Assembly (NCBI GenBank): GCA_032718475.1
Contig: JAUCBJ010001208.1
Span: forward strand, 1-64,000
DNA: 64,000 nt
Source of the DNA: Nemertoderma westbladi
Lineage: Eukaryota; Animalia; Xenacoelomorpha
Direction of reading: 5' to 3'
Of the stretch, positions 41,622 to 60,919 are shown piece after piece. Under the pieces are notes generated by a model that was given only the letters and a program-made list of their open reading frames with translations, was not told where the DNA came from and did not search any database. Numbering within the stretch: the first letter of the stretch is position 1; each line of letters begins with the position of its first letter. The position numbers and the translations under genes were made by a program.

Positions 41622-42735
41622 CCTGCACCCATGACATTTGCTAGATCATCCGCTTCTTCAAGGCCAGTGTCCTTTAAGATGCGTCTCAAGAAAGTCATGG
41701 GCTGCCACCATGCTTATTCAGTCCATGAGGCTGCCAAAGTATAAGTTTATGCACTGGCTGGTCCTCACGGTGAAAGCAATGTCCTGCAAAGCAGAGGCGA
41801 TTTTGTTCTAGTGTCAAGCTTGGGGGAACCAAAGAGACACCTCCAATGTTATATAGTGTCTGGTTGGAGATGTGTGCATTGTACTTGACACAATGTACCC
41901 GGCGTAGCATTCTTGTGAATGTGCCATCCAGAGATTTGGTGTCCGCAGCAGTTAGAGCCCAACATGGACTCTCATAGAGAGGTACTGGAACTACTGCTGC
42001 TCTAAATAATCGGACCTTAAGTTTCCGATTAATTCTCGGTGACTTCCAAATCCTGCAAAGCATATTCAAGGCTGCCCAATGCTTTCCCTTACGCATTCGA
42101 AGGTCCTCATCTGACTTCCGGATCCATGATCCCAGGTAACATAAGTCGTCCACATGCTCAAGCATACCATCCTTTGAGCTTATGCTCATCCGATCAGAGA
42201 CTTGCTGAGGACTTTCAAAGTTAACTGTCAAAAGTTTGGTCTTTCTGGAGTTAATAAAAAGACCAACACTAGAAGCAGCATGTTCTAATGAGCTGAGGAG
42301 CCGTTGGGCTCCCTCTAATGATTCTGAGAGTACTCCTAAGTCATCAGCAAAGTCTAGATCAGTTAGGTACTTGGCAGGATTTCCTCGACTTCTGGAGCCA
42401 GTAGGTGGAGTTATCATCACCCCATCATCATTATGATGATCTAAGGACGTGCGTAGAACATAGTCAACCACAATTATGAACAAGAATGGTGCAAGTGTGT
42501 CTCCCCGGAGGACGTCCCATTACACTTCAAATGGTTCTCTGTCACCGTCAACAGTAGAGACAAATGTTATCGAACCATCGTATACTGATCTGATTGCTGC
42601 AATAATTTCATCAGGAATCCCATATAATGAAAGTATGCTGAACATACGTGAGAGAGAGACTGAATCAAAGGCCTTGAAGAAGTCAACAAAGATAACAGCC
42701 AGATGCCTATCTTTCTTTTTTGATAACTCTTAAAT
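41622..42735 (-). pseudogene. RTE-clade LINE reverse transcriptase fragment
   Basis: FVDFFKAFDS, GDTLAPFLFIIVVDYVL, DLDFADDL, YLGSWI; same C-terminus as the other RTE copies. Confidence 0.9.
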
Positions 42736-42899
42736 TATCCTTCGGGTATCCTATGGGCTCCATGGTCCCACGAATGCCGAATTGGCCGAATGCCAAAATA
42801 AGGATCACGAGACGAATTACAGAAATGCTGAAATGTTTGATCCTGTTTAAACACTTAGTTAGTAGGCCTACAACATAGTTAGTACAACATGAATAAACC

Positions 42900-43095
42900 A
42901 TGCAGTTAGGTGTATAATAATACTGTTCGGGTTTGCAATTAGCACAACATTAATTTGACCAAGCAGTTAGGTGTATAATAATACTGTTCGGGTTTGCAGT
43001 TAGCACAACATTAATTAGACCTTGCAGTTAGGTGTATAGTAATACTGTTCAGGTTTGCAGTTACCACAACATTAATAGACAATGCAGTTAGGGCT
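42900..43095. repeat. ~61-bp tandem repeat (~3 copies)
   Basis: GCAGTTAGGTGTATAATAATACTGTTCGGGTTTGCA...CACAACATTAAT repeated. Confidence 0.85.
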
Positions 43096-43639
43096 ATGGT
43101 ATATGTGTAGTCTTTACCACCCTTGTACTCTAGCGACCTTCTAGAGAATTGGTTAGTTAGGTGTATAGTTGATTTGCATGCGTCTGGAGCAGTTAGCACT
43201 TTGGACGAAAAAGAGCTCGTTAGCGTTTCGAGTGGTTTGCCGGTATACGTGTTTGTGCACATTGATATTGGCTTGGAAGGGTAAGAAGTGCTCTACTTCA
43301 TGGCCACCTATACAAAGAATTGTATCGATTATTTGGGTTCTTATTTCGGGTATTAAATATTTAGCGGGTAAAATTAAGCTCTTGCTGTATAAAAATAGCA
43401 CAGGTCGATTCACCGTGTCCCATTCTCACAAATATTCGAGTGTTTAATATAAAGATGTATGATTATTTATTGATTAAAAATTAAATAGTGTAAGAATATG
43501 TCATATTCTCTCATAGAGCCTCTACTTTCCCTATGGTAGGGAATGGGGAACGATTTTCTCTGTATCATAGCAACGTTGTATAATTATTTAACTCTAGCTA
43601 GCTGGGAAGACAGGTAGCAAGCTGGCTGGAGTGTTGAGT

Positions 43640-44487
43640 GTGTCTCAGTAAATCCAATTGTTGGGGTATAACTATATATTAACATGTATTGATGCCTTTA
43701 GCAGGCTTGCTTTTGCCTATGCTATGAAAACAAAAAGGGTATTGAAATTATTAGTATATTGCAAAAAATATTCCAGAAAGGAAAACCAAACAGAATCGCG
43801 ACTGATCAAGGGTCTGAGTTTCTAAATAAATCTGTAAGAAAATATTTAGATACGTTAGGTATACAGTATTACGTAATGTATTCTGTGAATAAGGCGGCTA
43901 TTGTCGAGAGATTCAATAGAACATTAAAAACAAAGATGTTCAAAATTTTTACGCAACGAGGAAATAATGTTTGGATTAAAATTTTACCAAAGCTCATTTA
44001 TGCTTATAATAGGTCATATCATAGGACAATAAAAATGACACCTATTGAAGTTAATAAATTTAATGAAACTGAATTAATGAATAGATTATATGGGAAATAT
44101 AGACAGATTAATCATAAGAAAATAAAATTTAAAGTTGGAGATACAGTACGATTATCTATCGCTCGTACTGCTTTTGCTAAAGGCTATCGAGAACAATGGA
44201 CACATGAATTATTTATTATTCATCGTGTCAGGTTGGATAGAGTACCTGCGGTAATGTTCGATATTAAGGACAGCGCTGGAGCTATAATAAATGGCTCATT
44301 TTGTTCTCACGAACTCCAAAAGGTCCACCCGAATAGTAATATTTATCTAGCAATTGATAAAAATATTGGCAAACTTAAAGAACGTGTACGCAATGGGAAG
44401 AATATTTAATATTTAGTAAAAAAGAAAGAATATTTAGTCCGATTCATCGGATCCAAGAAACAGTCGTGGGTACAGCATATTCAATAA
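43640..44487 (+). pseudogene. Maverick retroviral-like integrase, N-truncated and frameshifted, with chromodomain-like tail
   Basis: GYNYILTCIDAFSR; IATDQGSEF; KAAIVERFNRTLK; YNRSYHRTIKMTP; KFKVGDTVR; EYLVRFIG...SWV. Confidence 0.9.
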
Positions 44488-44738
44488 GCTTAGGTTTATA
44501 CTGTATATTAATTCATTTTGGTCACATATGACCGTAATTAATCAATATTAACTCGAATGATATTACTATATCTATAGTTCATCCGTTTTAAATAAAGCCA
44601 ATATAATATTGATCCCGCGCATATACTGTAGAAGATGCGACAATGAACGTGGTCACAGATGTCTATAATTTAACATTATACTGTACTGTATGTACAATGG
44701 AGTCAAGTAGAGAGAGAGCTTAAATAATAATAATAATA

Positions 44739-45611
44739 ATGGCCACAGATACATATATCACTCTACTTTCAGATAGCTCATTAAACACTTACCCCAATAA
44801 TAATCCTAGTGAGTTTACTGTTGATTTAGCCGAAGAATTATATATTGGTCCAAACGCTAAAATTGGGCTTGCCGAGCTACAATACCAAGCAACATACAGT
44901 AATATTACACTGCAAACTCAAATCTCGCTGTCAATCGGGGTAGATGCAAAAGATGCCAAATTATATAGTTTATTTCCTGGTATGCATAGCTCTATTCAAG
45001 TGATTATTGATGATATAAATAAACTGTTTAATTCTGAAGCGAAATATAGAGATTTCGAATTCATTTTTAATACAAATAATTCTAGAATTAAATTTAAATT
45101 TCCTAAAAAGTTGAAAAAAATACAATTAAGTCTACGTGGTGATTTAATACAAATTCTAGGCTTAAAACCGTTATTGGATCGGAATCATCCAGGTATTCCG
45201 AATTGGGATATATACAGTACCACTACAGTAGATGAATTAAGCAATATAGAACAGCCGATATTAATTTTAAATTATAGCGGACCAAAAATTTCGGAAATTG
45301 GCATTTTAGATTTTCCAGCTCCCACGAATATAACACGTAATAAAGACACTATCTTTATATATACAGATATTATTAAGAGCTCATTTGTTGGTGACGCTTT
45401 AGCTCCGCTCTTAAGAACCTGCCCTTTAACGCAATTAAATCGAAAATATATTAATCACGATTACGAGAGCATTTGCTATTACCCGTTGTTGAATAAAAAA
45501 CTAAAAACAATCTTAATTACTTTACGTGACGGACAAGGCGAATTAATTAATTTTAGCGGAGGTCGCACTGTTATAACACTTAAGTTAATACGGGGTGGCA
45601 GTGATGGATGA
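44739..45611 (+). CDS. Maverick minor capsid (penton-like) protein 1
   Basis: YITLLSDSSLNTYPNNNPSEFTVDL N-terminus; IFIYTDII...VGD..APLLR; ITLRDGQGELINF. Confidence 0.8.
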   Translation: MATDTYITLLSDSSLNTYPNNNPSEFTVDLAEELYIGPNAKIGLAELQYQATYSNITLQTQISLSIGVDAKDAKLYSLFPGMHSSIQVIIDDINKLFNSEAKYRDFEFIFNTNNSRIKFKFPKKLKKIQLSLRGDLIQILGLKPLLDRNHPGIPNWDIYSTTTVDELSNIEQPILILNYSGPKISEIGILDFPAPTNITRNKDTIFIYTDIIKSSFVGDALAPLLRTCPLTQLNRKYINHDYESICYYPLLNKKLKTILITLRDGQGELINFSGGRTVITLKLIRGGSDG

Positions 45612-46449
45612 ATTCTACGTAAGACTACCAAGTAACTCCTGTCCAATTGATTTTCCCCGCAATAGCGCTAGTAATTATCAGATCAATTTCCATGGCGCCT
45701 TACCTATAAACCCAAACGAAAACTGGGTGGTAGGTATAAAAAGTATATTTTACTTAGCTACGTTGCCGTCCATGTATAACAATGTAGAGAATGTTATTTT
45801 ATTAAAAAAAGGAAAAAAAAATTTTGAGGATACACTTCCATCCGGTTTGTTCTACAGTATCAATGACATTATAGATTATTTTAACACGGGGGCATTGAAA
45901 GATAAATTACAAATAGTTGAAAATACTCAGCAAAATAGGTTGCAATTTATTTTAGGGAAAACTGTGCGAGAGTTATTTATAGGTCAACAATTAGCCTATT
46001 ATTTTGGAATTACTGAAAATAATCTCGGTGCGAATTTAAATCCAAATTTTAAAATTATTTTGAAGACGAAAAATAATATAAAGGGTTATTTAATAAAGGT
46101 TATCGGAAATGGAGAAAAAGCTTACCAGATGGTATTTTTATGCCCTCAACCACCCAATTCTATTCCAGAACCTAAGTCGAACATGTACGTGACTACTAAT
46201 ATAATTGAAAATCAATATATTAATGACTTTGGTTTAGCTTTACTTCGTCGTGTTGCGATACCTGATGACGTGAAATATGGTAGCGTAATAAATAAAGAAT
46301 TTGTCAAGGATACAATTCATTATATCCCTGTAAAAAAATCATATAAGATAACATACATTCATATTGAAATAACAGACAAAGAAGGAAAAGATTTGAATTT
46401 TGAATACGGGACAACATCTATTACATTACACTTTAAACGAATAAATTAA
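45595..46449 (+). CDS. Maverick minor capsid (penton-like) protein 2
   Basis: FYVRLPSNSCPIDFPRNSASNY; MYVTTNII...LLRRV; IEITDKEGKDLNF..GTTSITLHFKR. Confidence 0.8.
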   Translation: MAVMDEFYVRLPSNSCPIDFPRNSASNYQINFHGALPINPNENWVVGIKSIFYLATLPSMYNNVENVILLKKGKKNFEDTLPSGLFYSINDIIDYFNTGALKDKLQIVENTQQNRLQFILGKTVRELFIGQQLAYYFGITENNLGANLNPNFKIILKTKNNIKGYLIKVIGNGEKAYQMVFLCPQPPNSIPEPKSNMYVTTNIIENQYINDFGLALLRRVAIPDDVKYGSVINKEFVKDTIHYIPVKKSYKITYIHIEITDKEGKDLNFEYGTTSITLHFKRIN

Positions 46450-46450
46450 A

Positions 46451-47011
46451 ATGGATTCTGATTTATTTCACAGATACAGTAAACCTCAATATGGTGGTGC
46501 AGACTCGAATCTTGCTGTTTTTAAAGGTGGTAGAAGTACGAGAGGCTCGACGCAAGTTCCTGTTTTTCGAGGTGGTTCATATATTGACCCTTACGGTCAA
46601 CAAATTGGCGCATTTGGTCCAAACTTAAAACAACGTCATTTTCAGCGTTATCCTAGAGGTATGAGGACAAATCAACACGGAGAAGGTATATTTACAGACG
46701 CTTTATCAACATTGAAAAAATTTGGTAAGCCATTAGCTAAAAAAGTTTTACAAAAAGCTTTACCATTTACCACAAAATTTATGAGACAACACGTAATACC
46801 AAAAGGTAAGCGGGTCTTACATCAGCAGGCTAATACGGTTATTAATAAAGCATTAAATAAAATGAAACCGTCAACAAGGTCAGTTGTAGAAAAAGTTTAT
46901 AGAGATTTAAAGCGACCCGCTAGACCAATGTCTATGAACATATATCATCGACGTAGTAAAAAGAGAAATATAAAAGGCAAACTGAAACACTGCGAAAAAA
47001 GTATTTTTTAA
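46451..47011 (+). CDS. Basic virion core/membrane-active protein with adenain-type cleavage motifs
   Basis: QYGG, VFKGG, VFRGG and QHGEG followed by amphipathic IFTDALSTLKKFGKPLAKK; Arg/Lys-rich; position between minor and major capsid genes. Confidence 0.65.
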   Translation: MDSDLFHRYSKPQYGGADSNLAVFKGGRSTRGSTQVPVFRGGSYIDPYGQQIGAFGPNLKQRHFQRYPRGMRTNQHGEGIFTDALSTLKKFGKPLAKKVLQKALPFTTKFMRQHVIPKGKRVLHQQANTVINKALNKMKPSTRSVVEKVYRDLKRPARPMSMNIYHRRSKKRNIKGKLKHCEKSIF

Positions 47012-47013
47012 TA

Positions 47014-48273
47014 ATGTCAATTATTAAGGAATTAGATTTATTTTCTACACAGCCAATACAGACTGAATTTAAAGTAAAGCATTATGAAACAATTTACCCC
47101 ATATCTAATCTCAGAAGTGAGTCTAGGGAAGTCACGTTCCTTGTACCGAGATCCAATGAATTCTATACGAAACTGCAAGATGCGTTATTAATTACAAAAT
47201 GTACTGTACGGTGGGATAGACGACTTGAAAATTCCCATATATATATGCTGAATTACCCCGCTGAAACTATGTGGAGTGATATTAAAATAGACCTTAATGA
47301 GAAGCAGGTTGAAAATAGCAATAACCATTATTTCTACAAGTCGTACTTATCCAATTTATTATTTACAACTTACGAGGATAAAAATGGGCTACTGGGTGCG
47401 GGTGGCTTTCATCAGCCTTTATCTGAGCACGGAAATGAAATTGATCCAAGCGCGCATCCTATTGGCGATGCCTTTAGTAAACAAATGCAATTTGTAAGTG
47501 GATTGACGATTGATTTTGATACTGAAAGCAAAATAATACAACCCGGGTATGATTTAAGAATGCATTTTAGAAAAGTATCAAATTCGTTTATTTTTAAAAT
47601 CACTCCAAACGCAAACGCGGTGACAAATCTTCGGCTAGAATTAGATGAAATAAAGATCCTAATCCCTAGAATGGAGGTTAATCCGGTAATAGAAAGCAGT
47701 CACCTAAAAGGTTTAGAGAGTTACGATATTGAATATCAATTCCAAAAAAAGGAGGTTACAACATTTACTATTCCCGCTCAAACCACAAATTACACCCAAA
47801 CAAACATATTTGATGGTAAAAAACCCAAATTAGTTATTATCGGCTTCATAACAAATAACGCTTATTCGGGAGAATTAATTAGCAATCCCTTGAAATTTGA
47901 ACATTTTAACCTTAGACGCGCGGAACTGATTGTAGACGGTCTTCCAGTAGGTGGTGTAATATACGAGCCTAATTTTACAGATGGAACATATATTTTTGAG
48001 TATACTCAATTAATGAAGAACATTAATACATATATTAATGGTTATGGAGGTAATAATATAGACCATGAAACCTACTTAGGTAATTGCCCCATCCTATCCT
48101 GGGACTTAACCGCCGATGGCTATGTTAGAGATCCGCAACCGTCGATATATACTAACGGCCAATTAAAATTAAGATTTGCCGAACCGTTGGTTGAAACCAT
48201 AAATGTAATCGTTTTTAATATTTATGATCAATCATTAAGTTTAAATAGCAGGAAAGAAATACATATCGATTAA
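47014..48273 (+). CDS. Maverick major capsid protein (double jelly-roll)
   Basis: ELDLF...IQT, YFYKSYL..LL, PKLVIIGF...AYSG....NPLKFEHFNL, WDLT.D, LKLRFAEPL motifs. Confidence 0.88.
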   Translation: MSIIKELDLFSTQPIQTEFKVKHYETIYPISNLRSESREVTFLVPRSNEFYTKLQDALLITKCTVRWDRRLENSHIYMLNYPAETMWSDIKIDLNEKQVENSNNHYFYKSYLSNLLFTTYEDKNGLLGAGGFHQPLSEHGNEIDPSAHPIGDAFSKQMQFVSGLTIDFDTESKIIQPGYDLRMHFRKVSNSFIFKITPNANAVTNLRLELDEIKILIPRMEVNPVIESSHLKGLESYDIEYQFQKKEVTTFTIPAQTTNYTQTNIFDGKKPKLVIIGFITNNAYSGELISNPLKFEHFNLRRAELIVDGLPVGGVIYEPNFTDGTYIFEYTQLMKNINTYINGYGGNNIDHETYLGNCPILSWDLTADGYVRDPQPSIYTNGQLKLRFAEPLVETINVIVFNIYDQSLSLNSRKEIHID

Positions 48274-48275
48274 GT

Positions 48276-48731
48276 ATGTTATCTACAGAGGACCTTGATA
48301 TGTTTCCAGTGGGTGGTCACTATTTGGGAGCGTTTCCAGCTAATAAATTACCTAAATTAGATAATAATAATAAGCGAAGAGATTATGGGTTAATAGTAAA
48401 TACCGATAAAGAGCATCTGCCCGGGATTCATTGGATCGCAATATATATACGAGATAATGAGGCTGAATTATTTGATTCATTTGGATCAAAATATCCAAAC
48501 AGATGCATCGAAAAATGGCTTGAGAAAAATTCCGCAAGATGGCGTACTACTCGCAAACAATTTCAAGACCCTAGGCGGACCACATGCGGTCTATACTGTC
48601 TTTATTATTTGGTAAATCGAATTCACACAAACTATCCAATGAGTGCGTTTACAAATAATGTGGAAATAAATGAAATAATATTATATAAATGGCTTATTAA
48701 TTATTATAAAATAAACCAACAAGCGTTGTAA
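48276..48731 (+). CDS. Adenain-like cysteine (maturation) protease
   Basis: IVNTD...PGIHWIAI, FDSFG, Q.....CGLYCLYYL. Confidence 0.92.
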   Translation: MLSTEDLDMFPVGGHYLGAFPANKLPKLDNNNKRRDYGLIVNTDKEHLPGIHWIAIYIRDNEAELFDSFGSKYPNRCIEKWLEKNSARWRTTRKQFQDPRRTTCGLYCLYYLVNRIHTNYPMSAFTNNVEINEIILYKWLINYYKINQQAL

Positions 48732-48762
48732 TTAATCATTTAGCTTTTGTTTATCAGATAAA

Positions 48763-49365
48763 ATGGATAATATTATTTTTGTTGATTTTCAATATTTTAA
48801 GATAGACAATAAAGAGTATCCGGTAGTATTTAAAGAATTTGCTATATTCGATTCTAATTACACCAAAACTAATGTAAAGACGTTTTTAATTAAAGGCCCA
48901 CCTAATATTAAGTTATCAGCTTTAGATGTAGCTCACGTAAACAATTTACGAGACATGACTTCTCATTTGCCCTGGGACTACGGTGACATTTCGCAAGATG
49001 ACTTTAAAAAATATATGAAGAGACATTTAAAATATAAAAAAAATATACATGTATTTGGGTTGCTGAAACGGGCAATATTAGTTTCCCAACTTGATGTTCT
49101 CGCACCAAATTCGGTGGAGAAATTGGGAATATATAAGCAATATCATGATTATTTAACCCCCTGTCGCTTCCACGATCAATTTACTACAGTAGAAAATAAA
49201 TGTGCGTTCCACTTAAACATAAAGGATAACTGTCTGCGATACTGCTCAGCAAAACGCATTGGGGGGTATGAGATGCTACACTTTTTCATGAGAAAGCGTT
49301 TAACTGCGACTGATGATGATAAACAGAAAGAAATAACTGCAGTGGAAGATGTACTCATACTGTAG
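48763..49365 (+). CDS. Maverick accessory protein, DEDD-exonuclease-like fold with C-terminal Cys/His cluster
   Basis: IIFVDFQ...FKEFAI, HLPWDYGD, CAFH...CSA; fold assignment from motif memory only. Confidence 0.55.
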   Translation: MDNIIFVDFQYFKIDNKEYPVVFKEFAIFDSNYTKTNVKTFLIKGPPNIKLSALDVAHVNNLRDMTSHLPWDYGDISQDDFKKYMKRHLKYKKNIHVFGLLKRAILVSQLDVLAPNSVEKLGIYKQYHDYLTPCRFHDQFTTVENKCAFHLNIKDNCLRYCSAKRIGGYEMLHFFMRKRLTATDDDKQKEITAVEDVLIL

Positions 49366-50502
49366 GTTTAACTGCGGTGGAAGATGTACTCTTACAGTAG
49401 GTTTACTCTAAGCTTGTAATGTGATGGGATAATATATTTGTTTTAATGTCAATAAAAAATAATAAAAACATTAAAATCTTTTTTTATATCGCTGTTTACA
49501 CTCACAAACACAACACACCTACCGGTAGCCCCCTGTTGTATCAGAGTTTAACTACCAGTAGCTAGCTGACTTTACACATACAGACATATAGAATGGCGGA
49601 ATGGCGCCCTTCTAGACTGACAGCAACCACAAGGCTTTAGCACAAGGCTTACTAAATAATAAAATTAAATTAACTCAACATGGAGGGTTCGTGAATGCCG
49701 CATTAGAGAGGCCCACCTAACAATAGGCCTACTGGTACCGAGGGCCCTGTAGCCCTCTTCCAACCGTATACCAGTACTTGAGGATAGAGCAAGAGCATAC
49801 CGGTTTCTTTGATTTAAGGATTACACTATTACACTTGAATGCTTCCAATTTTCTGTTTACAACTTTAATTGGTCTAATCTACATTACTGCGGGCGGGCTA
49901 CTACTGTCGCATAGGTAAGCCTATACAGCTATTGTTAACTTTATGCGGGGCCCTTTTTCACATGTTGACCCAATATGGTTTATGGTTAACCTTTAGTACT
50001 CGTGGATAGGTAAGGTGCACTTTCATTCGGTTAGGCATATAGGCCTAATGACTTACTCCTCAACTGAAAGTTGACTAGCTCATTGATACAATAGGTGTGG
50101 TTAGGTACCGGTAGCGCTATAGGTCCTATAAAATCCCCTCGCACTCTCTGTTACTAACTTTCTACATTCACTCTATGTTGTATGCTTCTTTACAGTTAAC
50201 CTTTAGAACTCTTGGTTAGGGGCGCCATCATTCAACCAGTCATATAATGGTTCCACTCGGATACAATAGGTGTGGCTCGCAGTATACCTAACTAAGCCTA
50301 TATAAAATCCACCCCATTCTCTGTTACTAACATTCACTCTATGTTGACGGGGGGACTATATAAAACATAGTTAATTTATTTATGTATTCGCTTTTTTTAA
50401 ATTATATATAAAATAGATTCGGTCTACTAAGTTTTATAAGCAACAATAACTGATAACAATAACAACAACAACAACACTAAATTTATTACTGTATTATACT
50501 TT

Positions 50503-50919
50503 TTATAGTCCTATATGTGGGTCCCTCTGTAGAGTTTCCTCCATTACCGGTACCTGTAAATGGTTGTTTATAGGCCTAACTTCTACCGGTCTTTGTGTTG
50601 GTATATTGAAGTGAAGCGTATCATCAACATCATTCTCCCAATTTTCACTAGAGGGTGAGCTTCCCGATATTTGCGGTTGTATCTTTATAACAAGCGAGAA
50701 ATCTTTTGAAATTTCAACCTTTGTAGGCGATAAAGGTAGACCATCTACTTGACCTACTCCATATTCTACCGAAGTAAACCCAATCTCAAATTTGTGGTTT
50801 ATATATCGCAACTCCATCTCAGCAATATTGGATGCTGAGAGATATGTTTCGTCGCTTGATTGCAATTCGATTTTGATACAACTTTTCAACTCACGGTTAT
50901 TGAAAAAGGCGAATGTCAT
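50503..50919 (-). CDS. Hypothetical Maverick protein
   Basis: 138-aa ORF in the minus-strand cassette followed by AATAAA; no recognised motif. Confidence 0.45.
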   Translation of the reverse strand: MTFAFFNNRELKSCIKIELQSSDETYLSASNIAEMELRYINHKFEIGFTSVEYGVGQVDGLPLSPTKVEISKDFSLVIKIQPQISGSSPSSENWENDVDDTLHFNIPTQRPVEVRPINNHLQVPVMEETLQRDPHIGL

Positions 50920-51602
50920 CTTCGAGTCGAGGTAAGTTGTCGTCGTCGTCGTAACTAGGTACCGGTAAGAATATCTTTAAATTGAATAGGTAGGCCTACT
51001 GATATTTTTTTCTTCTTTTGTTTAACAAAATTATAGTTCACTGTCAGAAAAATTGAGTTTATATATATTTTTGTAGAGGGTCGCAGAGGTGTACATTACA
51101 AAATTCTCATAGTTAACAAAATGCACAACATAAACCTTTCCCAGGCGGATTAGCGATATATGCTCTGTTCGTTGTTCTATTCTGAATGTAGGGAGATGCA
51201 TAGCCGATGTTTTAATGATATGTACCGGTATACAGACTAGTAACAGATAGGAGGGCATCGTCTTTGACTATGAATGCCAGCACATAGCCCTAATCTTTTC
51301 TCACTGAGCTTAGCGTTGCCCGCCGCACTCACGCACACTCATAAGTAACAGATGCGCTATTGTAACTCACTCGTGAGCAACAATGCCAAGTTAGCTAGCT
51401 AGCTACAGCCCCTGAGTATACTATGCCTACTTGTGTGTTACAAGCAGCAATCGCTCTACCGAAGTTAATTTCCCCTCAAACTAGTTGTTGATTTAAAAAA
51501 AAAAATATTCATAATTTTTTTCCAACCAATTTAATATATATATATTTTACAGTAAAAATCTCCACCACCAAACAGCAACAACAACAATAAATTTCACTCA
51601 CA

Positions 51603-52154
51603 CTAATTATATTTTACAACAAAAACCCTCGCACCAAACAATAATAAATTATTAACCAGTTTGTTGAATATAGGGTAATATATATGAAATTTAAACGGGG
51701 AACACATTAATGTACATTTACCGGTGTAGAAGCAGCAAACAACAACATTATTATTTATTCTGACTTTACAGTTATTGAATATTTCAGGTTCATATATAAC
51801 TTGAAGTTGCACATTATCAAAGACAACATAAAACCCGGTATTGTTTATCAATAACCTATAGACTACAGACTTAATACTAAAAATATAAGTACATAAATTA
51901 ACAGATTTTAAAATCAAATTAATACTAGTTTTATCAAATATATGCTTTTTTACTTTTTGGAAATTATACTTACTGCCTAATAATGTAATACGACCATTTT
52001 TAAATATTAATAATGTAGCACCAAATATCTTATATATAAACTGATTTGGTTTGAATATGTGTTTACCAGATAATTGATTTTTTAATTCTTTAAAATTAAT
52101 CGCTAACACTTGCTGGCAACTTATATTTTTATTTACAATTTGATAATTCATCAT
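51603..52154 (-). CDS. TATA-binding-protein (TBP)-like protein, ~183 aa
   Basis: Two TBP repeats: QIVNKNISC..INFKEL...FKPNQFIYK..ATLLIFKNGRITLLGSK and IYEPEIF...VVCCFYTGKCTLM; probable ATG at 52154 overlapping the polB 3' end. Confidence 0.75.
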   Translation of the reverse strand: MMNYQIVNKNISCQQVLAINFKELKNQLSGKHIFKPNQFIYKIFGATLLIFKNGRITLLGSKYNFQKVKKHIFDKTSINLILKSVNLCTYIFSIKSVVYRLLINNTGFYVVFDNVQLQVIYEPEIFNNCKVRINNNVVVCCFYTGKCTLMCSPFKFHIYYPIFNKLVNNLLLFGARVFVVKYN

Positions 52155-55100
52155 CAACACTGTCGTCTTTTGGTTCTTCATAAATTGGTATATTTGATAT
52201 TTGTATAGGTTTTTTGAGGTTTGTTTTATAGTGCCCCCAAGGAAGCGAATGATTTTTATTAACCCAATAAAGTTTATCGTCAAAGCTACTGAGTGCAAAT
52301 TTATTTCTCTTTAAGGTATAAATACGATGTAATTTAGATTGAAATCTGTGTATGTTTTTTTTTATTTCTTCATTTGAGTTATATGCTTTTAAATATTCTT
52401 CATATATTCGTTTCCACAACAGCTCTTGTAATACCTTTTGCTCTACGAATATTTTTGTTATTCCATTCCAAAATTGAATATAATTTTGGTCTTAAAAATA
52501 CTGCTTGTTTAATTTCACGTGAGGCTAGCTCGTCTTTACAGTAATAGAGTTGGGATTTATTTTTATCACTGTAATGAGGGTGATCCTTAGGGTAATTGGA
52601 AGTATCTAAAATATTATTTTTAATTAATGCTTTTAAAAAATTATTCTGTGATGTATTATAATAACAACCTATTAAAGAGTCAGTGTCTGATGCAGCAATT
52701 TCAATACGACAGTTTAATTCTTTCTCAATAGGTAGCAATTTATTGTAAAACAGCTCATACATATCCAATTTAGCCAAGTCCAACACAGCGCTACCAATAA
52801 ATATAGGCTTATCGAGAGTTACAGAGTCTTTCACTAATAAATGTCCCGATAATGTATTATTGTATATTATAAATTGTTCATGATTAATACGATTTACCAA
52901 TTGATCGCATTTATCGTTGCTATTTGCGATACGAAAGTCACATCGATCTCTTATCTTTTCTATTGATTTGCCAAACAGTGAATTATTGAGCAATTTCGCG
53001 ACAGCAGTTTCAATGTAACTTTTTGCTAGGCGCCTTTGATTAATATTAAAATCTATGTAGGGTTTAAATACAAATTCTTGTTGAAAAGAATATAATTTAT
53101 GTAGTTTAGTAACAATTAATCCATGTTTTATATAAAATTTTAACAGTTTCAAATGTAAATGATAAAACTCTTTATCAAATTGCGTCAGCAAGAGTTTTGG
53201 TGTAGACATCCTATATTTACGGGAGGTACCTCTTTGTATCGATAAATTATTAAATTGTTCCCTCATATAAGGTGAAAGCATTGATTCATTTATACTTAAA
53301 TGCTCTGGGGCTAACGGTAATTGTAATGTTTGATCGTGAATAGCTTTAGGATAATTTAAATCACATATTAAAAAATATCCAGTAGATCCATCAATGTCTA
53401 AATCTACCAAGTACTCGATTAGTTTTTCTGGAATTGCATTCTCTAAATGTTTAATACTTACTTCTTTGAATTGCGAGGTGGGTAGTTTTTTACTTAAATT
53501 CCCTGAATATAAAGAGTTGAAATCAATATTAAATATATGGCATTCTTCCTTAGTAGAATCATATGTACTTGTTCCTGGTATATTTGATTCTATATAATGC
53601 TTTCGACAAAATGAAACACCACCCCTAATTGATTTTTCAAAATCTCTATATGTCTGATAATCCTTTATTAATTCTATTTTACATTTATTATATTTTAGTG
53701 CGCAATCATAGGTAAATGACGCGATACTACAGTAAAAAACCACTTCTAAATCGTAATTTTGTTTACAAACATTCCTAAAATTCTCAAATATATCAGCAAG
53801 CAAACAAACATCGAGTTTTAAATAGGCTAAAAGATAATCTTTGAGATTCACACAGTCGAATTCAACCCATGATAATTCCGCAAACCTATAATCTTCAATT
53901 GTACATGTTTTTTGACTTAAGTTACTAAAAAAATTATTTATAAATGGTAAACTAGTATCATTAAATTTATTAATATCTGTCAAGTACTCGTATGGAAATA
54001 CTCCTTTCCGTTTAATTGTTGAGTTATTCAAGTTTGGATAAAAATATTTCATTTCTTGTAGAGTAATAGGTAAAATTGAGCTTATATCATGACTCGCTAC
54101 ATCCTTTGTTGAACACTCAACTAAATTACTTAAAGAAAAGCTTAAAAATTGATATGTGTCCAAGAAACGTAACTCAATTTTTTTAGAAGTGTTTTTAATT
54201 GGGATAAATGCATTCAGTGAAATATATCGTTCTGTATTTCTCGGTATAACCTTTATATCCCAATCTGTGTATTTCTTATCTCTAAATCCGGTTTGTAATA
54301 TACAATGTATATCGTAGTTGTTGGAATTGTGCCCGCAAAGTATATACAGGTATCGTTTCAATGATAAACTTCGGTTACAACTATTATAGGCTGCCGCAAT
54401 ATATTTACCTATAATATGTGAATGATGTCTGTTTTTCCCAACATTATTATTTAAAGTAACATTACAATAGAAACAGAATTTTGCTTGTTCAAAATTTACA
54501 AAATCAATATTAGTAAATGACATGGTTTTATGAGTATATATGTCTGACCAACAACATAATTCAGTTAAATCAGTATATAATGAATCTAAGAAATCTTGAA
54601 TACAATTATTATTATTATTTGTCTTTACAAATGTTTTCAAATGACATTTTGGTGGGTCAATTAATTCAGTATTGGGAACAATTAAATAACTCACAACACA
54701 CGGTATATGCTCCTGTATAAATTGATTATTAACTGAAGGTTGTAAGATACATTCTATATCAAAGTAGGTGACAAACAATGGGGATAAGGTTCTATCTAAA
54801 TTTGTAAAACTAATGTGTGTTCTTTTTTTATTAGGTAGTTTCTCGCGTTGACTTCTTCCTTGGTAGCATACAAGACGGTGTCGATGAAGAACTTCCGCTC
54901 GAAAAAAATGAGCCAAGCACCTTTCACAAAATTGCCTACCTCGAGTATGAAGAGCTCTCGTATTCAGCAATCGATTCAAGTTAGTTATGCAAACATAATG
55001 ATTCAGTTTAGGTACATTGTTATTTTTTACTACAAGTAATATATTTAATAACTGTTTATCAGGTGTAATTTTACTAAACGGAGGTTGTCTTAATATAGAT

Positions 55101-56189
55101 AGATACAGGAGTGTGTTTGTTGTCGTTATTCCAACATAGTAAATTAATTATATATTTTGAATTTTGTTTTTCAAAAAGTTTAATCGCTAACTGCCACTCT
55201 GTTGGATAATCTTTGTTCCCATTGTCAAAAATGAAATGACTCATATAATTTTTGTACAATGAAGTATGGTTTTTGTTGTTTTTCACTTTGCTACCAAATT
55301 TTGCGGATATAATAGCCCATTTGAAACAATCATTATCAGCTGTTTGTATATTTATTGTACATTTTTTAGCTGATAAAGCCTTAGGTAATTCCATATATCC
55401 ATGCCCCTTATATAGTAACGACCTACACTTAGATTCAGCTAATTTAATTTCAACCCTTAATAAAGATTTAATACGCCACCCCGAACCACGTGTGTTAAAG
55501 ATGGCTATTTTTTGTAATATATTTCCCAGCACATACTCAAACCATGTGTCAAAACTTTGCGGTGAATCTACAGTATTAATAGCACCACCGGAAGAATTAA
55601 AATAAAAGGTTTCCAATTGCTTGCCTTCTGAAAAATGTGATCTGTACATTAATACATTTAAACCTAACCACAGTCTAAGAACATTCATTTCTTTCAATCT
55701 ATCTAATATTAACTGAAGAATATTACCTCGAATTTGTGCTAATGCTGTTTCTACATCGGGATAATCTCTAGAAGTTGGGAGGTCGTGGACATAAATTTCA
55801 AGACGATTATCGTGAGCTTCTTGTTCCCGCGTAAAAATTGTTGCGCATGTACCAAGAGCCACCCTTAAGTTTTTTCTGGATATTATATTTTTATGTTGCG
55901 GAAATTTACGCTTTCTTGTGTAGTAACATTTCAAGTGACAGTCGTGTCATATATAATTCTCATATGTATACTCTTTATTACAGGTAGAACAAGTCAATTG
56001 ATAGGTGCGGAACTCCATTTCTTTACAACCAGTAGTTGATTCATGTCGTTTACAAATTTCGCTGCATGAAGTCACGACATGACACTTAAAACAAGAATAA
56101 CCTTCAAAATGTGACTGTAGGTGGCGTAAGTAATTATGTCTAGTTACATTCATATGACAGAATGAACAACATATTGTTATTTTATCCAT
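52129..56189 (-). pseudogene. polB: Protein-primed family B DNA polymerase (pPolB) with N-terminal C2H2 fingers and endonuclease-VII-like insert; disrupted by one stop and two frameshifts
   Basis: YFDIEC, GHNSNNYD, RFLDTYQF, RKGVFPYEY, YLKLDV, IDFNSLY, KLLNNSLFGK, SDTDS, LRPKLYS, RAKGI, LSSFDDK; fragments 55947-56189, 55074-55934, 52400-54979 and 52129-52419. Confidence 0.93.
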
Positions 56190-56381
56190 ATTGAAGTTTG
56201 TTTAGATAAATAATAATAATAATAATAATAATAAAGTATGTCCAAAGATTAAAATAAAATGAAATGATACGATATTGACTATATCTAAACATTTATATGA
56301 TAGCGAGGGAAATAATTTTAAACCAATCACCAATCGCTTATGACTATTGGAAACCGCAAAGAGTTTAACTTATGATTAGGT

Positions 56382-57443
56382 TTACATATTAGGATAATAA
56401 TAAGGTTTCCATGGAGAATTAGTAACAGGCTCTACTAGAACTGGGTTACTGACAACTTTATGTTTCTTTGCAGGTGATGCGTTGGTAAATTTACTCGATG
56501 ATCTTGGCTTCCGAGGTAATATTTCAGGAAAGACCTGTTGCGGTTGAGAGCAACTCTCTTCAACATCCGGATTAGGTGATGGGATCTCTACGAATGCTTT
56601 AGGTTTATCCAAAAGGACAAAACCGTCAACATGGGCTTCAGTAAGAGAAACGCCATCCATCGATTCTTTGAGAAAACTAATATGGGCTTTATCATTCAAG
56701 TAATGCAACTCAATAGAATTTCCGCCGGCACCTACTTCAGTAGAATTATCGGTGTTGGTGATAATAATTTTTTTATTATTGGTTTTAATCATTTTGAGCC
56801 GGTCTGATAATTGAATGATATTTTTATCAAAAAGATGCTTGTCTGTTTCATCGACTTGGTTGTCCCACTCTCGCAACAAAACGGTTAGTTCCTGTTTTGA
56901 CAAATTGAAACCCGTATAATAGTTAAAACCAACACTATCAGCGTATCTGAGGCTGATTTTCCATAAGCCAACATAGTTGGTTCCTTTAAAAGCTGTTACA
57001 AATCCAATAAACTCTGGATTTGATAATTCAATGTAGAATTGATCGCTAATAATCTCTAGCGGTGGAGAGATTAATTGCAATAATTTCCCTCTGTATTGAA
57101 TTAGAACTTCAGTAAAAGCTTTGTGAACTTTGCATTTGCCTTGTTTCTGAACGTAAACATCACCCGATGTGGGGTTGATGGAAATATTCAAATTTCCCCG
57201 CGCAAAACGAAGAGTTGGATATATCCTACCTGGTATAATTGCTGGTCTGGATTGATGTTGGTTGTTGTTGGTTGTTTCTAGAATGTCTAACAAATAGCGG
57301 GTATCTTGATGGGAAAAACAAATTGATTCGTTGTCCTCCTGAGATTCCACAATAAAATACTTGCTGTGTACGACGGTACAAGTATATTTATTGTAAGTAA
57401 ATTTCCAGCTATTTGTTGCTCCGGTTTTTTGCGTTAAGGCCAT
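56382..57443 (-). CDS. PC4/Sub1-like ssDNA-binding protein
   Basis: FVTAFKGTNYVGLW...TGFNLSKQEL resembles the PC4 V..FKG...V.IR...GI.L...Q pattern; basic NLS-like PAKKHK in the tail. Confidence 0.55.
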   Translation of the reverse strand: MALTQKTGATNSWKFTYNKYTCTVVHSKYFIVESQEDNESICFSHQDTRYLLDILETTNNNQHQSRPAIIPGRIYPTLRFARGNLNISINPTSGDVYVQKQGKCKVHKAFTEVLIQYRGKLLQLISPPLEIISDQFYIELSNPEFIGFVTAFKGTNYVGLWKISLRYADSVGFNYYTGFNLSKQELTVLLREWDNQVDETDKHLFDKNIIQLSDRLKMIKTNNKKIIITNTDNSTEVGAGGNSIELHYLNDKAHISFLKESMDGVSLTEAHVDGFVLLDKPKAFVEIPSPNPDVEESCSQPQQVFPEILPRKPRSSSKFTNASPAKKHKVVSNPVLVEPVTNSPWKPYYYPNM

Positions 57444-57497
57444 AATAATAATAAATACGAAAAATATTACAAGTGATAAATTTTAAACCGTATCGCT

Positions 57498-57919
57498 GTA
57501 ATAAATTGACACCATAGTTCTCACTCTAAAATTGTGTTGGTCGGAAGACGAGACCAAAGAAAAATGATGCTGAGTTCGACATTAGGTATCGACCAAAAAA
57601 CAAAAATTGAGCTACTAATAAACTATTTAACAAAAATCTTGATCTTAATTTGCGATTTGAAATATCCCAAAGATATTCATGATCGTACATTAGAACTACC
57701 CTTAGCCCCGTCAGTATCAAGATTTGTTAAATAGTTTAAATAGTAGCTCAGATTTTCGTTTTTAGGTCGATACCCAATGCTGGAATCAGTATCATTTTAT
57801 GAGGTGTCGTTTTCCGACCAACGAATATACAACGAATAAGATAATGTAGAAATTATTAAGGAAATAACACAATTTCAGAGTGAGAACAAAAAAAATTAGA
57901 TATGGTATCAATATATTAC
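57498..57919. other. Long imperfect inverted repeat (hairpin) containing polB-derived sequence, flanked by 22-bp direct repeats
   Basis: Arms 57498-57643 and 57716-57919; loop encodes LICDLKYPKDIHDRTLELPLAP; direct repeats ATTACAAGTGAT(A/G)AATTTTAAA at 57466 and 57927. Confidence 0.85.
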
Positions 57920-59312
57920 CATGAAGATTACAAGTGATGAATTTTAAATAAAAACATTCAGTTATATAAGTTTCTGAATACGTGATGTGGCATAGTCAAC
58001 GTAGAAGAGATGGGATGTGGCATAATGGACGAATAAGAAAAGAGATGGGTTGCAATGTGGATAGGAAATACGTGAAAGAATATGAATCATAGGGTTGTGT
58101 GTAATAATAATCAATAATTATAATAAAAACGCACAGTATAATGTTAGTAGTAGTAGTAGCCTTTCAATATGGCAAAGATGCTGCGGGATCGGTTAGCTTG
58201 AGTAACTACTATGGAAATGCTCGTATACGTGTAGTTGACACGAGGCGGAATTTCATGCACATGTATCATACTGAGTGGTTGGTTTGTTGGTTTGGCGACG
58301 GCTGTCGTGGAGTTGGCAATCGATATAATATAATATATGCGCGATGCGAGTAGTTGGTGGCCACGTCGTCGTTGTCACCATCATATACAGTATACAGCGG
58401 TGGTGGTGGTGGTGATGGTGACGTGGTGAAAAGGTGAATAACATTAGGGTTAGTAGTTAGTTAGTCAGTCAGTAAGGCGGGCATCCGCGAGGTTAGGCTA
58501 CGCTACGCTACGATTGGTTGATGGCAACTGCCGATCGATGGATGGTGGTGACAGATGTGGCGCGCACCGCAATTTAGCACCGGAATTTGGCATTTTTTAA
58601 TAGCCCTCCGAATGGAATGTGCATAGCCCAGGCTTAGGGAGGACTTTGTTGGGGGCCATGCTTTATCTACTACTAATGGGAAACTACTTTGGAGGAATAT
58701 GAAATATCAAGGTGGTCAACAAAGTAAAATTGTTTATTGTCCATCAAATGAAACATTTGCCACTTTAGGTTGGCCTTTTACAGTTATCTATATAATGGAT
58801 TTTATAACTGGAGAAATCATTAATAAAATTATGAATGAGATGACCACATATGACATTACTACAGTACTATTGCTTGCTTTTCAAATAATCACCATCATAA
58901 TTGGTAAGTTGCATAATAATAATTTGAAAATCGTTAGGACTGTACTTATTGCTGTAAAGAAAATCGTCTGTTTGTTTGATTGTCTGTGTGTATGTGAACG
59001 TTATTATTGGAATGGAAGGGATCATGCTCTACTTGGTGAAGGGTCAAGTATACTATAACTATATACTACAAGTGATACTATAACTCTGTCAAACTGTCCT
59101 TCTTATGTGCTGAAAGTCTTCTAATAGCCAGCTTGCTGACACTGATGACATCTAGTTCTATAAATAGTCACATATTGTAATGCCTCAAAACACATTGGCT
59201 GAGGCATTACATGAGGTCTCCTCCCTACTTATTGCTAGTAGGGTGGAGCCCTACTATTTAATTTTAGAAATTCAAATATAACAAGTCAGGAAAAATATCC
59301 TCTCCTAATTAA

Positions 59313-60919
59313 CCCTATTAGTACCGGGCTATAAAATGTAATATAATAATTTATTATTGTTATTTAATAAAATGTTGTACAAATACCGGGGGGGGGGGGG
59401 TCATATTGACTATGACATATTGATTGTTTGTACGTAGGTATCACTAGTCTGGATCCGACTGAAAAAAAAATTTTGAGAAAATGTACTGGGGTGGTTGGTT
59501 ATATTGCAGCACCAAAATTACAAGTAGTGCACAATTTTCACAAAATGTGAAAGTTACCTTTTTCGGCTAATTGTTTTTCAATACAGCATTTCTGGGGCGC
59601 AAAATACATTGGAAAATACTTAAAAATGATATGATTACTATAAATGGCTGTTTAGTCCTCTCTGCGTAGGAAAAAAATGAAAAAAAACTAGTAAACAGCA
59701 CTTTTCAGTTAAAACACAAAATTTTTAATTCATTTATACGATGCTATAAATTCACATTTTCAGATTTTCTAGGGCGCTGATTCTAATGGAAAACATTTCT
59801 AATATGCCAGATCATTGCTACTTGTATTTTTAGGCGTAATTTGGCAAATTTTGGTGCTAGCACCAAATTTCGAACCCATCACCAAAAAGTACAAGTTTGC
59901 GAAGTCCAGTGCTGTTTTTATTGATTCCATTGGATTCAGTACCCTCATAAACCCGCATAACGCAAGAAACAAGATGATACTATCTACTGATCAATTTGCT
60001 TATTTTTCAAAATTTGGTGGTGACACAACAATTTTCACCCACCGGCGAAAAATACCAGTTTGAAAACTCTTATGGAATTTTTACTGATTCCATTGAATTT
60101 AGAACCCTGACGAACCCGTATAACGCAAGAAACAAGGTGACACAATCAATTGATATATTTGATGGTTTTCTAAATTTGTGCTAGCACCACATTTTGCACC
60201 CACTTCCGAAAAATACAAGTTTGAGATGTCTATTTCGATAATTATATATTCCATTGAATTCAGAACAGCCATAAACCTCTAAAACGCAAGAAATAAATTG
60301 TCACAAGCAATTTTATCTATTGAATGAATTTTCAAAATTTCGTGCTAGCACTAAAATTTCCACACAGCACCGAAAAATACAAGTTTGATACGCTTGGTGC
60401 AACTCGTATATATTTCATCGAAACCAGAACCCCAAAAAACCCCAATTGCGTAAATAACAAGTTTCAAACAATCAATTTACAAAATTGACATATTTCAAAA
60501 TTTGGTGCTGGCACCACAATTTGGCACCCGCCGAAAAAAACAAGTTTGAAATTTCTAAATCAATTTATATGAATTCCATCCAATTGCTAACACCAAAAAA
60601 CCGGTGTAAATCAAAAATAGAGATGTTACAATTCATATATAATGAAATTTTCAAAATTTTCAATGAATTTTTTTTTTTCAATGAATGAAATTTTCAAAAA
60701 ACGTCTCAAAAAAAGTGCCAAAAGTAGGGTTAAAAAATGGTGCTATAACTCGATTACTACCCAATATTTTTGAATACGGTTTTTATTACTAGGAAGACAA
60801 TGGTTTTTTAGGAAAAGTCCTAAAGTTTCAGATTCCCAACTGCGTTTGTTTCAGAATTATAATAAAAAAACCACGGGGGGGGGGGGTCATATTGACACCC
60901 CCCCCCCCCCCCCCCCAGG
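59313..60919. mobile_element. Second copy of the non-autonomous piggyBac-like element
   Basis: TTAA at 59309-59312 and 60920-60923; highly similar to 29809-31386. Confidence 0.8.

What the first reader, a model, noticed from the sequence alone, without database searches (positions are those of the whole stretch)
57466..57948. Maverick carries a long hairpin built from the polB of a diverged relative
Seen: a ~420-bp imperfect inverted repeat sits just upstream of the minus-strand replication cassette, bracketed by 22-bp direct repeats (21/22 identical). The loop (57645-57710) aligns to this element's own polB (~53305-53370) in the opposite orientation at 53/66 nt, and 8 of the 12 changed codons are synonymous. 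Homology extends into the stem (ELLINYLT-NLD versus EKLIEYLVDLD). Inference: the synonymous bias means the fragment came from a different functional polB, not from decay of this copy. A transcribed hairpin could yield siRNA or antisense RNA against competing Mavericks (superinfection exclusion) or tune the element's own polymerase.
Basis: partly seen in the sequence, partly recalled or inferred. Interest (0 to 1): 0.85.

Follow-up and report, generated by a model that had tools for sequence, protein, structure and literature searches.

The report
Maverick hairpin capturing relatives' polymerase fragments
A virus-like jumping element (Maverick) carries, just in front of its replication genes, a 420-base fold-back sequence whose centre matches the polymerase gene of a related Maverick and differs between copies; it is likely made into a hairpin RNA that would yield small RNAs against rival Mavericks, but no RNA from it has been seen.

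Summary
A 422-bp hairpin (57498-57919, z about -17) sits between 22-bp direct repeats. Its loop matches the element's own polB at 53/66 nt, with 8 of 12 changed codons synonymous.

The donor exists. In public run X4, a 976-nt contig matches the loop with 0 differences in 67 nt, also supplies the innermost stem, and is 83% identical to the element's own polB. Loop and stem join through 4 nt of microhomology, the anatomy of a fold-back templated insertion.

The hairpin is family-wide, not private to this broken copy and not a dispersed MITE. The outer stem recurs in 4 of 4 runs laid, while the centre varies: short-loop copies lack the polB core, and other joints tie the site to other pieces of the replication genes.

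Limits: polB explains only the central ~130 nt, only 23 paired bases are donor-derived, and no transcript or small RNA could be tested. Best reading (0.4): a self-sparing hairpin-RNA cassette against relatives. Rivals: structure-only function (0.3) and repair scar (0.25).

The parts
57466..57487 (.). Direct repeat 1 (22 bp), 23 nt upstream of the ATG at 57443
57498..57535 (.). Left outer stem (18-bp and 19-bp helices); conserved among sister copies
   Evidence: helices; X4 record 21 shows no substitution in 57370-57536, X5 record 26 none in 57399-57538 but 6 gap letters
57536..57607 (.). Left middle stem; source unknown; some sister copies depart from the window here
57608..57643 (+). Left inner stem; 57619-57643 is polB-sense donor sequence with a 2-nt insertion, followed by a ~20-nt loss relative to the donor; origin of 57608-57618 not settled
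57643..57709 (+). Loop: 67 nt identical to the polB of a related Maverick subfamily (sense on +); about 80% to the own polB
   Evidence: X4 976-nt record, 0 differences; same record 83% to own polB
57706..57709 (.). 4-nt microhomology (CCCC) shared by the end of the loop match and the start of the inverted arm match: the inferred fold-back point
   Evidence: piece 57643-57709 and opposite-strand joint at 57706
57706..57738 (-). Right inner stem: inverted copy of the donor polB segment just upstream of the loop; only 18/33 identical to the own polB in register
   Evidence: joints (match at the 80% threshold, exact identity not printed)
57746..57822 (.). Right middle stem; source unknown
57823..57868 (.). 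~45-nt unpaired bulge of the right arm; some sister copies have an ORF-353-like piece next to 57841
   Evidence: joint 57062->57841 in X2 and X4
57869..57919 (.). Right outer stem with a 13-nt bulge; on the minus strand it begins with GT at 57919
57496..57919 (-). Candidate 424-nt intron: GT...AG ends fall exactly on the stem base and leave a 2-nt 3' overhang (splicing not shown)
   Evidence: chance about 0.008 from frequencies, noticed after the fact
57927..57948 (.). Direct repeat 2; predicted transcription start about 30 nt downstream of the TATA-like box
   Evidence: start site inferred
57963..57968 (-). TATA-like box, the only one in 57300-58200
56382..57443 (-). 353-aa ORF of unknown family, first gene of the minus-strand cassette
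52129..55946 (-). Protein-primed DNA polymerase B of this copy, broken into three reading frames (55074-55946, 52400-55147, 52129-52491)
53306..53418 (-). Own polB segment homologous to the captured core (53306-53373 loop-equivalent, 53386-53418 stem-equivalent)
51603..52310 (-). TBP-like ORF
   Evidence: Pfam PF00352, E 3e-8
43702..44409 (+). rve integrase frame; an ATG-started ORF covers only 177 aa
   Evidence: PF00665, E 5e-5, below the curated cut-off
47014..48273 (+). Double jelly-roll major capsid protein
48276..48731 (+). Adenain-like protease
   Evidence: PF00770, E 7e-6

Best explanation
This Maverick family carries a long hairpin at the head of its replication cassette, with a conserved outer stem and a centre that differs between copies; in this copy the centre matches the polB of a related Maverick subfamily, was likely gained by a fold-back templated insertion, and is likely transcribed into a hairpin RNA that would be cut into small RNAs silencing the relative while sparing the carrier. 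SHOWN: the hairpin; a donor polB identical to the loop; the inverted duplication of the donor's upstream segment with 4-nt microhomology; sister copies that keep the outer stem with other centres; poor self-match of the captured stem. INFERRED, in order: (1) transcription on the minus strand from the TATA-like box, starting in direct repeat 2; (2) release of the hairpin from the leader of the cassette mRNA, possibly by splicing at the GT...AG ends that coincide with the stem base; (3) cutting by host Dicer; (4) silencing of co-resident or incoming relatives, which gives selection for keeping and renewing the centre; (5) renewal by breakage at the palindrome centre and repair from other Maverick DNA.
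For: Donor: the X4 record of 976 nt, depth 24, has 0 differences over 57643-57709 (record 357-423). It has 105 differences in 622 nt against own polB 52754-53375 (record 355-976); the coordinates agree to the base. A second polB type, 34 differences in 1203 nt, overlaps the same place in that run, so two subfamilies co-occur. Self-sparing: the captured stem is 18/33 identical to own polB, against 83% downstream. None of 804 hairpin 21-mers has fewer than 3 mismatches to the own coding strands; core-stem 21-mers have 5 to 8. Family-wide: left outer stem covered in 4 of 4 runs and right outer stem in 3 of 4; contigs bridge flank and arm (X4 records 21 and 23, X5 record 26, X2 record 6). Conserved: X4 record 23 has 31 listed substitutions in 57948-58190, leaving at most 5 of its 36 for 57841-57947. 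Variable centre: joints 57607/57609/57612->57743/57744 with 8-12 other letters in X2 and X3, two studies; 57513->52533 (X2, X3; side 32), 56989<->57773 (X2; side 43), 57062->57841 (X2, X4; side 29-30). 0 of 1500 shuffled 60-nt pieces gave an ungapped 80% match of 29 nt or more to that stretch. The only TATA-like box lies upstream of the hairpin, and the stem base is GT...AG with a 2-nt overhang. Precedent for hairpin RNAs built from their targets: PMC10317233 (passages), PMC3440606 (abstract).
Against: Only two short helices (15 + 8 bp, split by a 2-nt bulge) are clearly donor-derived; the best match, the 67-nt loop, is unpaired. In Drosophila hp-ODox2, sequence outside the inverted repeat gave no siRNAs (PMC10317233 passage). 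About 290 nt of the arms have no identified target or source. Arm mismatches show no G-U bias for either strand: 5 minus, 4 plus, 8 transversions. The stem-equivalent region is also the less conserved part among 40 PolBs (0.44 against 0.64 for the loop-equivalent), so self-sparing could be luck. The core is not fixed: copies without it exist. Joints can only reveal pieces of the stretch that was laid (51500-58100), so 'captures come from replication genes' is partly a detection bias. The extra joints are single contigs per run at 80% likeness, the tool warns about such joints, and my chance test was ungapped. A known repair route makes the same anatomy without selection (PMC11724301 section 19).
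Confidence: 0.4

Rival explanations
1. Structure matters, content does not. The hairpin is kept for its shape: a leader intron or translational brake on the replication cassette, a Dicer decoy in the manner of adenovirus VA RNA (recalled), or a DNA cruciform used in replication. The captured polB piece is an incidental patch.
For: A conserved outer stem and repeats with an exchangeable centre fit this equally well. Short-loop copies lack any polB core. The hairpin lies between the only TATA-like box and the first ATG, and the stem base coincides with GT...AG.
Against: It does not explain why the captured stem is a segment that separates the relative from self (18/33), nor the further joints to Maverick gene pieces at the same site, although both can arise by chance and template availability.
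Confidence: 0.3
2. Neutral repair scar. A palindrome inherited from the family's founder breaks at its centre and is patched with whatever Maverick DNA is nearby by microhomology-mediated fold-back. Neither hairpin nor insert does anything.
For: In yeast, complex insertions at breaks often consist of two fragments of one distant locus in inverted orientation, joined by 2-11 nt of microhomology (PMC11724301 section 19); here it is 4 nt. Equally strong hairpins occur elsewhere in the window (41196-41471 z about -20, 40233-40465 z about -14). Unchecked earlier notes describe snap-back Mavericks in other genomes.
Against: Outer stem and repeats are better conserved than the adjoining non-coding DNA, including in a run labelled as another organism (X5, left side). 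No repeat-to-repeat collapse that removes the hairpin is among the 10 joints, although 22-bp repeats invite it; one X2 joint (57454->57899) removes most of it.
Confidence: 0.25
3. Self-regulation: the fragment came from, or is aimed at, the element's own polB to limit its own replication.
For: On a minus-strand transcript the loop is antisense to own polB at about 80% identity, with best 21-mers at 3 mismatches.
Against: The loop is identical to another polB, is unpaired, and the paired part has 5 to 8 mismatches per 21-mer to the own genes.
Confidence: 0.03
4. A dispersed MITE or introner that landed in this copy and happens to hold a polB piece.
For: Inverted ends, flanking direct repeats and splice-like termini resemble such elements (recalled; the introner search was seen as a listing only).
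Against: No second copy of the arms in 64 kb. Listed arm contigs continue into Maverick flanks, and the share running on into unlike DNA is 0 and 0.02 in the two deep runs (0.15 and 0.24 in the two shallow ones). The repeats do not abut the stem.
Confidence: 0.02

Closest known systems
Drosophila hpRNAs Nmy, Tmy, hp-ODox (10.1101/2021.08.05.454923 and PMC10317233; passages read)
   Same: Inverted repeat built from a piece of its target. Sister loci can hold different stems: hp-ODox1 a gene exon, hp-ODox2 a transposon piece.
   Different: Those are host loci with proven siRNAs. Here the hairpin rides inside the mobile element, the target is a relative of the carrier, the target-derived stem is short, and no RNA is shown.
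Mu killer of maize (PMC3440606; abstract read)
   Same: Inverted duplication of part of a transposon gene, proposed to give a hairpin RNA that silences the family in trans.
   Different: Mu killer is a rearranged derivative of the element it silences, about 4 kb, read from a flanking gene. This hairpin is about 0.4 kb, a standing part of a high-copy family, and matches a different subfamily better than self.
Distant inverted templated insertions at DNA breaks in yeast (PMC11724301; abstract and section 19 read)
   Same: Two fragments of one distant locus in inverted orientation, joined by short microhomology; similar size range.
   Different: Those are one-off repair products in mutants. Here the event sits in the centre of an older conserved hairpin and appears to recur at that site.
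Mavericks/Polintons (adintoviruses) (PMC8097293, PMC8502044; passages read)
   Same: pPolB, rve integrase, adenain protease and double jelly-roll capsid in two oppositely oriented modules.
   Different: The word 'hairpin' does not occur in the main text of either paper. This copy shows no packaging ATPase or terminal repeats.
Mirtrons (recalled, no call)
   Same: Hairpin whose ends coincide with splice-site dinucleotides and leave a 2-nt 3' overhang.
   Different: 424 nt here, against under about 100 nt (recalled); splicing not shown.

Membership tests
Maverick/Polinton (host element) | Protein-primed family B DNA polymerase | tested here: met
   Best hits 36-42% identical; P0001 carries PF03175; the window's own frame had no Pfam hit; gene broken into three frames
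Maverick/Polinton (host element) | Retroviral-like integrase | tested here: inconclusive
   rve E 5e-5, below the curated cut-off, short frame
Maverick/Polinton (host element) | Adenoviral-like protease | tested here: met
   PF00770, E 7e-6, above cut-off
Maverick/Polinton (host element) | Double jelly-roll major capsid protein | tested here: met
   Atlas score 0.98 to DJR clusters; 45 homologues, 2 named capsid proteins
Maverick/Polinton (host element) | Packaging ATPase | tested here: inconclusive
   No Walker A motif in an ORF of the element and no Pfam hit; this copy is incomplete, the family was not surveyed
Maverick/Polinton (host element) | [quoted passage not shown] | tested here: inconclusive
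   No TIR pair among the longest inverted repeats of 42000-60000; left end appears lost; PMC8097293 reports most copies lack TIRs
hpRNA / endo-siRNA locus (Nmy, Mu killer type) | Long inverted repeat folding to extended dsRNA | tested here: met
   131 long-range pairs in 7 helices; z -18.7
hpRNA / endo-siRNA locus (Nmy, Mu killer type) | Stem complementary to an identifiable target | tested here: inconclusive
   True for the inner 23 bp (donor polB); no target found for the rest
hpRNA / endo-siRNA locus (Nmy, Mu killer type) | Transcribed and diced to ~21-nt RNAs from both arms | not testable with these tools
   No run on record as RNA; contigs only
hpRNA / endo-siRNA locus (Nmy, Mu killer type) | Represses its target in trans | not testable with these tools
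   Needs experiments
Templated inverted insertion (fold-back) | Two pieces of one distant locus in inverted orientation joined by short microhomology | tested here: met
   One donor record supplies loop (+) and arm (-), overlapping by 4 nt
Mirtron | Hairpin ends coincide with GT...AG and leave a 2-nt 3' overhang | tested here: met
   (sequence level only)
Mirtron | Pre-miRNA size, under about 100 nt (recalled) | tested here: not met
   424 nt
Mirtron | Spliced out | not testable with these tools
   No RNA run on record
MITE / introner | Dispersed copies in unrelated flanks | tested here: not met
   None in the window; listed arm contigs run into Maverick flanks; no whole genome available
Described RNA family (Rfam) | Match to a covariance model | tested here: not met
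   0 matches at E up to 1 in 56000-59500

The most novel reading that the evidence does not exclude
An animal virus-like element with its own updatable immune memory. A conserved hairpin, released as a giant mirtron-like intron from the leader of the replication genes, repeatedly takes up short pieces of rival Mavericks at its centre and turns them into small RNAs through the host's Dicer: spacer acquisition in the logic of CRISPR, used for competition between Maverick subfamilies.
Probability: 0.2. Interest if true: 0.92.

Novelty: new variant of a known kind. Interest (0 to 1): 0.68.

Why it matters
If it is functional, it would show that Mavericks compete inside one germ line by borrowing host RNAi. 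The hairpin centres of different copies would then be a readable record of which subfamilies met. It would make superinfection exclusion among endogenous DNA viruses of animals directly testable, because a donor and a 33-nt target are now defined. Even if neutral, an exact piece of one subfamily's polB in another's hairpin indicates that the two exchanged DNA recently, and marks a hot spot of templated insertion. My searches of the held open-access library (listings and abstract starts only, apart from the passages cited) showed no paper describing such a structure in a Maverick. Subscription papers and supplements were not seen.

Tried and rejected
No whole genome is held for this window, so copies could not be listed one by one. 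No related loci were found in viral contigs, metagenome contigs or prokaryote genome contigs.

No RNA holder was listed. X5 is only guessed to be RNA; its contig crosses 57496 unspliced, and no CT..AC joint is listed or 33 (10 joints hidden). This says nothing for or against expression or splicing. Depth dips over the inner arms (X2, X3) and the lack of cover there in X4 and X5 were not used, because hairpins can drop out of libraries. Depth over the loop is confounded by own-family polB at the 80% threshold, so I could not tell how many copies share the polB core.

My first idea, a 14-nt natural inverted repeat in the donor as the fold-back point, was dropped: the overlap is 4 nt. The idea that the right bulge and outer arm are an older capture of the polB 3' end was dropped: blastx E 0.66, 4 of 500 shuffles in one of six pairings picked afterwards, and the PolB profile gave -0.3 bits at a different place with 12 of 300 shuffles as good. 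The window's bulge against ORF-353 was not significant (89 of 500 shuffles). Joints with side 22-23 (52591->57943, 57511->57943, 57454->57899) are weak: 56 of 1500 shuffles gave such a match. The short-loop joints have side 21 in two of three variants and 53 in the third.

ORF-353 looked PC4-like by eye (recalled motif), but Pfam, homologue search, Atlas and a single-sequence model (pLDDT 35) gave no support. The GC-rich stretch 58150-58650 is not a real hairpin (z -0.9). The capsid search against solved structures found nothing. Earlier-findings look-ups by sequence, place and the specific word sets were empty.

Full report
OBSERVATION. The hairpin is real. 57466-57948 folds at -175.7 kcal/mol on + and -179.7 on -, z about -17, with 0 of 100 shuffles as good. 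The stem runs 57498-57919 and has 131 long-range pairs in seven helices of 18, 19, 18, 15, 38, 15 and 8 bp, with bulges of 13 and ~45 nt on the right arm. The 22-bp repeats are the only two matches in the window and sit 10 and 7 nt outside the stem. The loop matches own polB 53306-53371 at 53/66, with 8 of 12 changed codons synonymous; random decay reproduces that in at most 0.5% of simulations. Only the centre is polB-like: the loop scored 70 against a shuffle maximum of 29, and no other segment beat its shuffles. A profile of 40 of the 150 fetched PolBs gave 23.5 bits for the core and nothing for the arms.

SETTING. The element has an rve frame, capsid, protease and further ORFs on + (43702-49365). 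On - it has a 353-aa ORF, a Cys/His-rich frame, polB in three frames and a TBP-like gene (57443 down to 51603). No ATPase motif or terminal repeat pair was found, so this is a degraded Maverick copy. Neighbouring retroelements suggest an animal host (inference). The hairpin lies between the only TATA-like box of the region (57963-57968) and the first ATG of the minus cassette. A transcript starting about 30 nt below the box would begin in repeat 2 and run through the hairpin (inferred).

THE DONOR. No genome is held, so I used public runs. 7 were listed and 4 were laid twice at 80% likeness. In X4 a 976-nt record of depth 24 matches 57643-57709 with no difference (record 357-423) and has a joint to 57706 on the opposite strand with 33 letters on the short side. 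A record of the same length and depth aligns to own polB 52754-53375 from record position 355, with 105 differences in 622 nt, and a joint links 53375 to 57706 with 10 letters between. The two sets of coordinates agree to the base. So one gene, 83% identical to the carrier's polB, supplies both the loop and, inverted, the inner stem. A second polB type, 97% identical to the window, covers the same place in that run. Whether the donor lies in the host genome or in something else in the sample is not shown. Loop match and arm match overlap by 4 nt (57706-57709). This is the anatomy of the distant inverted insertions described at yeast breaks: two fragments of one locus, inverted, with 2-11 nt microhomology (PMC11724301, section 19 read). 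The left arm then differs from the donor by a 2-nt insertion and a loss of about 20 nt before the loop.

FAMILY-WIDE, WITH A VARIABLE CENTRE. X2 and X3 laid 1102 and 490 contigs on 1.5 kb, the picture of a high-copy, diverse family. Contigs bridge the Maverick flank and the outer arm in X2, X4 and X5 (records 6, 21, 23, 26), and little runs on into unlike DNA in the deep runs, so the arms are not a dispersed MITE. The outer stem is conserved. X4 shows no substitution in 57370-57536, and X5 (labelled a different organism) none in 57399-57538 (6 gap letters). On the right, X4 has 31 listed substitutions in 57948-58190 and at most 5 in 57841-57947 (33 rows hidden). The centre varies. Three joints, each seen in X2 and X3, replace 57608-57742 by 8-12 other letters. 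X5 leaves the window's sequence at 57538, and X4 record 23 has 82 other letters before 57841. Further joints tie the site to other pieces of the replication cassette: 57513->52533 (polB 3' part; X2, X3; side 32), 56989<->57773 (ORF-353; X2; side 43), 57062->57841 (ORF-353; X2, X4; side 29-30). Ungapped 80% matches of 29 nt or more arose in 0 of 1500 shuffled pieces, and 23-nt matches in 56, so I count only these three. They remain single contigs per run, and the method can only show pieces of the stretch laid. No joint collapsing repeat 1 onto repeat 2 is among the 10. How many copies share the polB core could not be told.

HOW IT LIKELY WORKS. The captured stem is 18/33 identical to own polB in register. 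No hairpin 21-mer on either strand (804 tested) has fewer than 3 mismatches to the carrier's coding strands, and core-stem 21-mers have 5 to 8. Small RNAs from the inner stem would therefore hit the donor and spare the carrier. On the minus strand the stem begins with GT at 57919 and ends with AG at 57496 as a 2-nt overhang. For a fixed stem end that has a chance of about 0.008 (frequencies, both strands), but I noticed it after the fact. Splicing would both clear a -179 kcal/mol block from the leader and release a Dicer-ready duplex. None of this is shown at RNA level. Against it: only 23 paired bases are clearly donor-derived; the loop is unpaired, and unpaired captured sequence gave no siRNAs in Drosophila hp-ODox2 (PMC10317233, passage). 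Most of the stem has no known target, there is no G-U strand bias, and the stem-equivalent region is generally variable among PolBs. I put the sequence-specific reading at 0.4, structure-only function at 0.3, neutral scar at 0.25, self-regulation at 0.03 and MITE at 0.02.

COMPARISON. It works like (inferred) Drosophila hpRNAs and Mu killer: hairpins made from their targets (10.1101/2021.08.05.454923 and PMC10317233, passages; PMC3440606, abstract). It differs in being carried by the element and matching a relative better than self. It cannot be filed as an hpRNA without RNA data, and it fails the mirtron size criterion (recalled). Passages of PMC8097293, PMC8502044, PMC12220804 and 10.1101/2024.01.15.575659 have no occurrence of 'hairpin' in their main text; PMC12220804 lists other ncRNA classes in polinton-like viruses. 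Searches (listings and abstract starts) showed no description of a fragment-capturing hairpin in Mavericks; searches served for comparisons. Supplements were not read and could bear on novelty. Earlier scan notes on snap-back Mavericks and on hairpin arrays with constant base and variable top are unchecked leads; they make fold-back and RNA hairpins in Mavericks plausible but are not support.

VERDICT. Observation confirmed and extended: real donor, family-wide hairpin, exchangeable centre. Function untested. New variant of a known kind, interest 0.68; the adaptive-memory reading has probability 0.2 and would deserve 0.92.

Noticed in passing
window 51603-52310 (-): The Maverick encodes a TBP-like protein (PF00352, E 3e-8) downstream of polB; it could serve the element's own promoters.
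   Followed up: no
window 41196-41471: A second strong hairpin outside the Maverick (z about -20, arms 78% alike); 51 nt resemble the tandem unit at 36089-36139. Likely a host foldback repeat.
   Followed up: partly
window 40233-40465: Hairpin made of ~20-nt repeated units in both orientations (z about -14).
   Followed up: partly
window 59424-60916 and 29912-31361: Two copies, 90.5% alike, of a 1.5-kb element with internal ~165-bp repeats and poly-G/poly-C ends; the right copy lies just beyond the Maverick's right side.
   Followed up: partly
window 15 to at least 889: Array of a 17-bp tandem unit with strong strand skew at the window start (100 overlapping family members); its far end was not mapped.
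   Followed up: no
window 10115-13684, 16374-17192, 19936-21000 (+): LTR-retrotransposon ORFs with DUF5641, integrase zinc finger and zinc knuckle hits; Bel/Pao type by recall, which points to an animal host.
   Followed up: partly
window 42897-43079, 49366-51600: 61-bp tandem triple next to the Maverick's left side; a short internal duplication at 50085-50346 in the gap between the two gene modules.
   Followed up: no
window 55946/55947, 56201-56241: polB is preceded without a gap by a small Cys/His-rich frame (55947-56201); ATT-repeat runs precede several ATGs of the element (44739, 56189, 57443).
   Followed up: no
window 57920-57922 (-): An ATG lies directly before the candidate 5' splice site; if the hairpin were spliced out it would open a short out-of-frame upstream ORF overlapping the ATG at 57443 (read by eye).
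   Followed up: no
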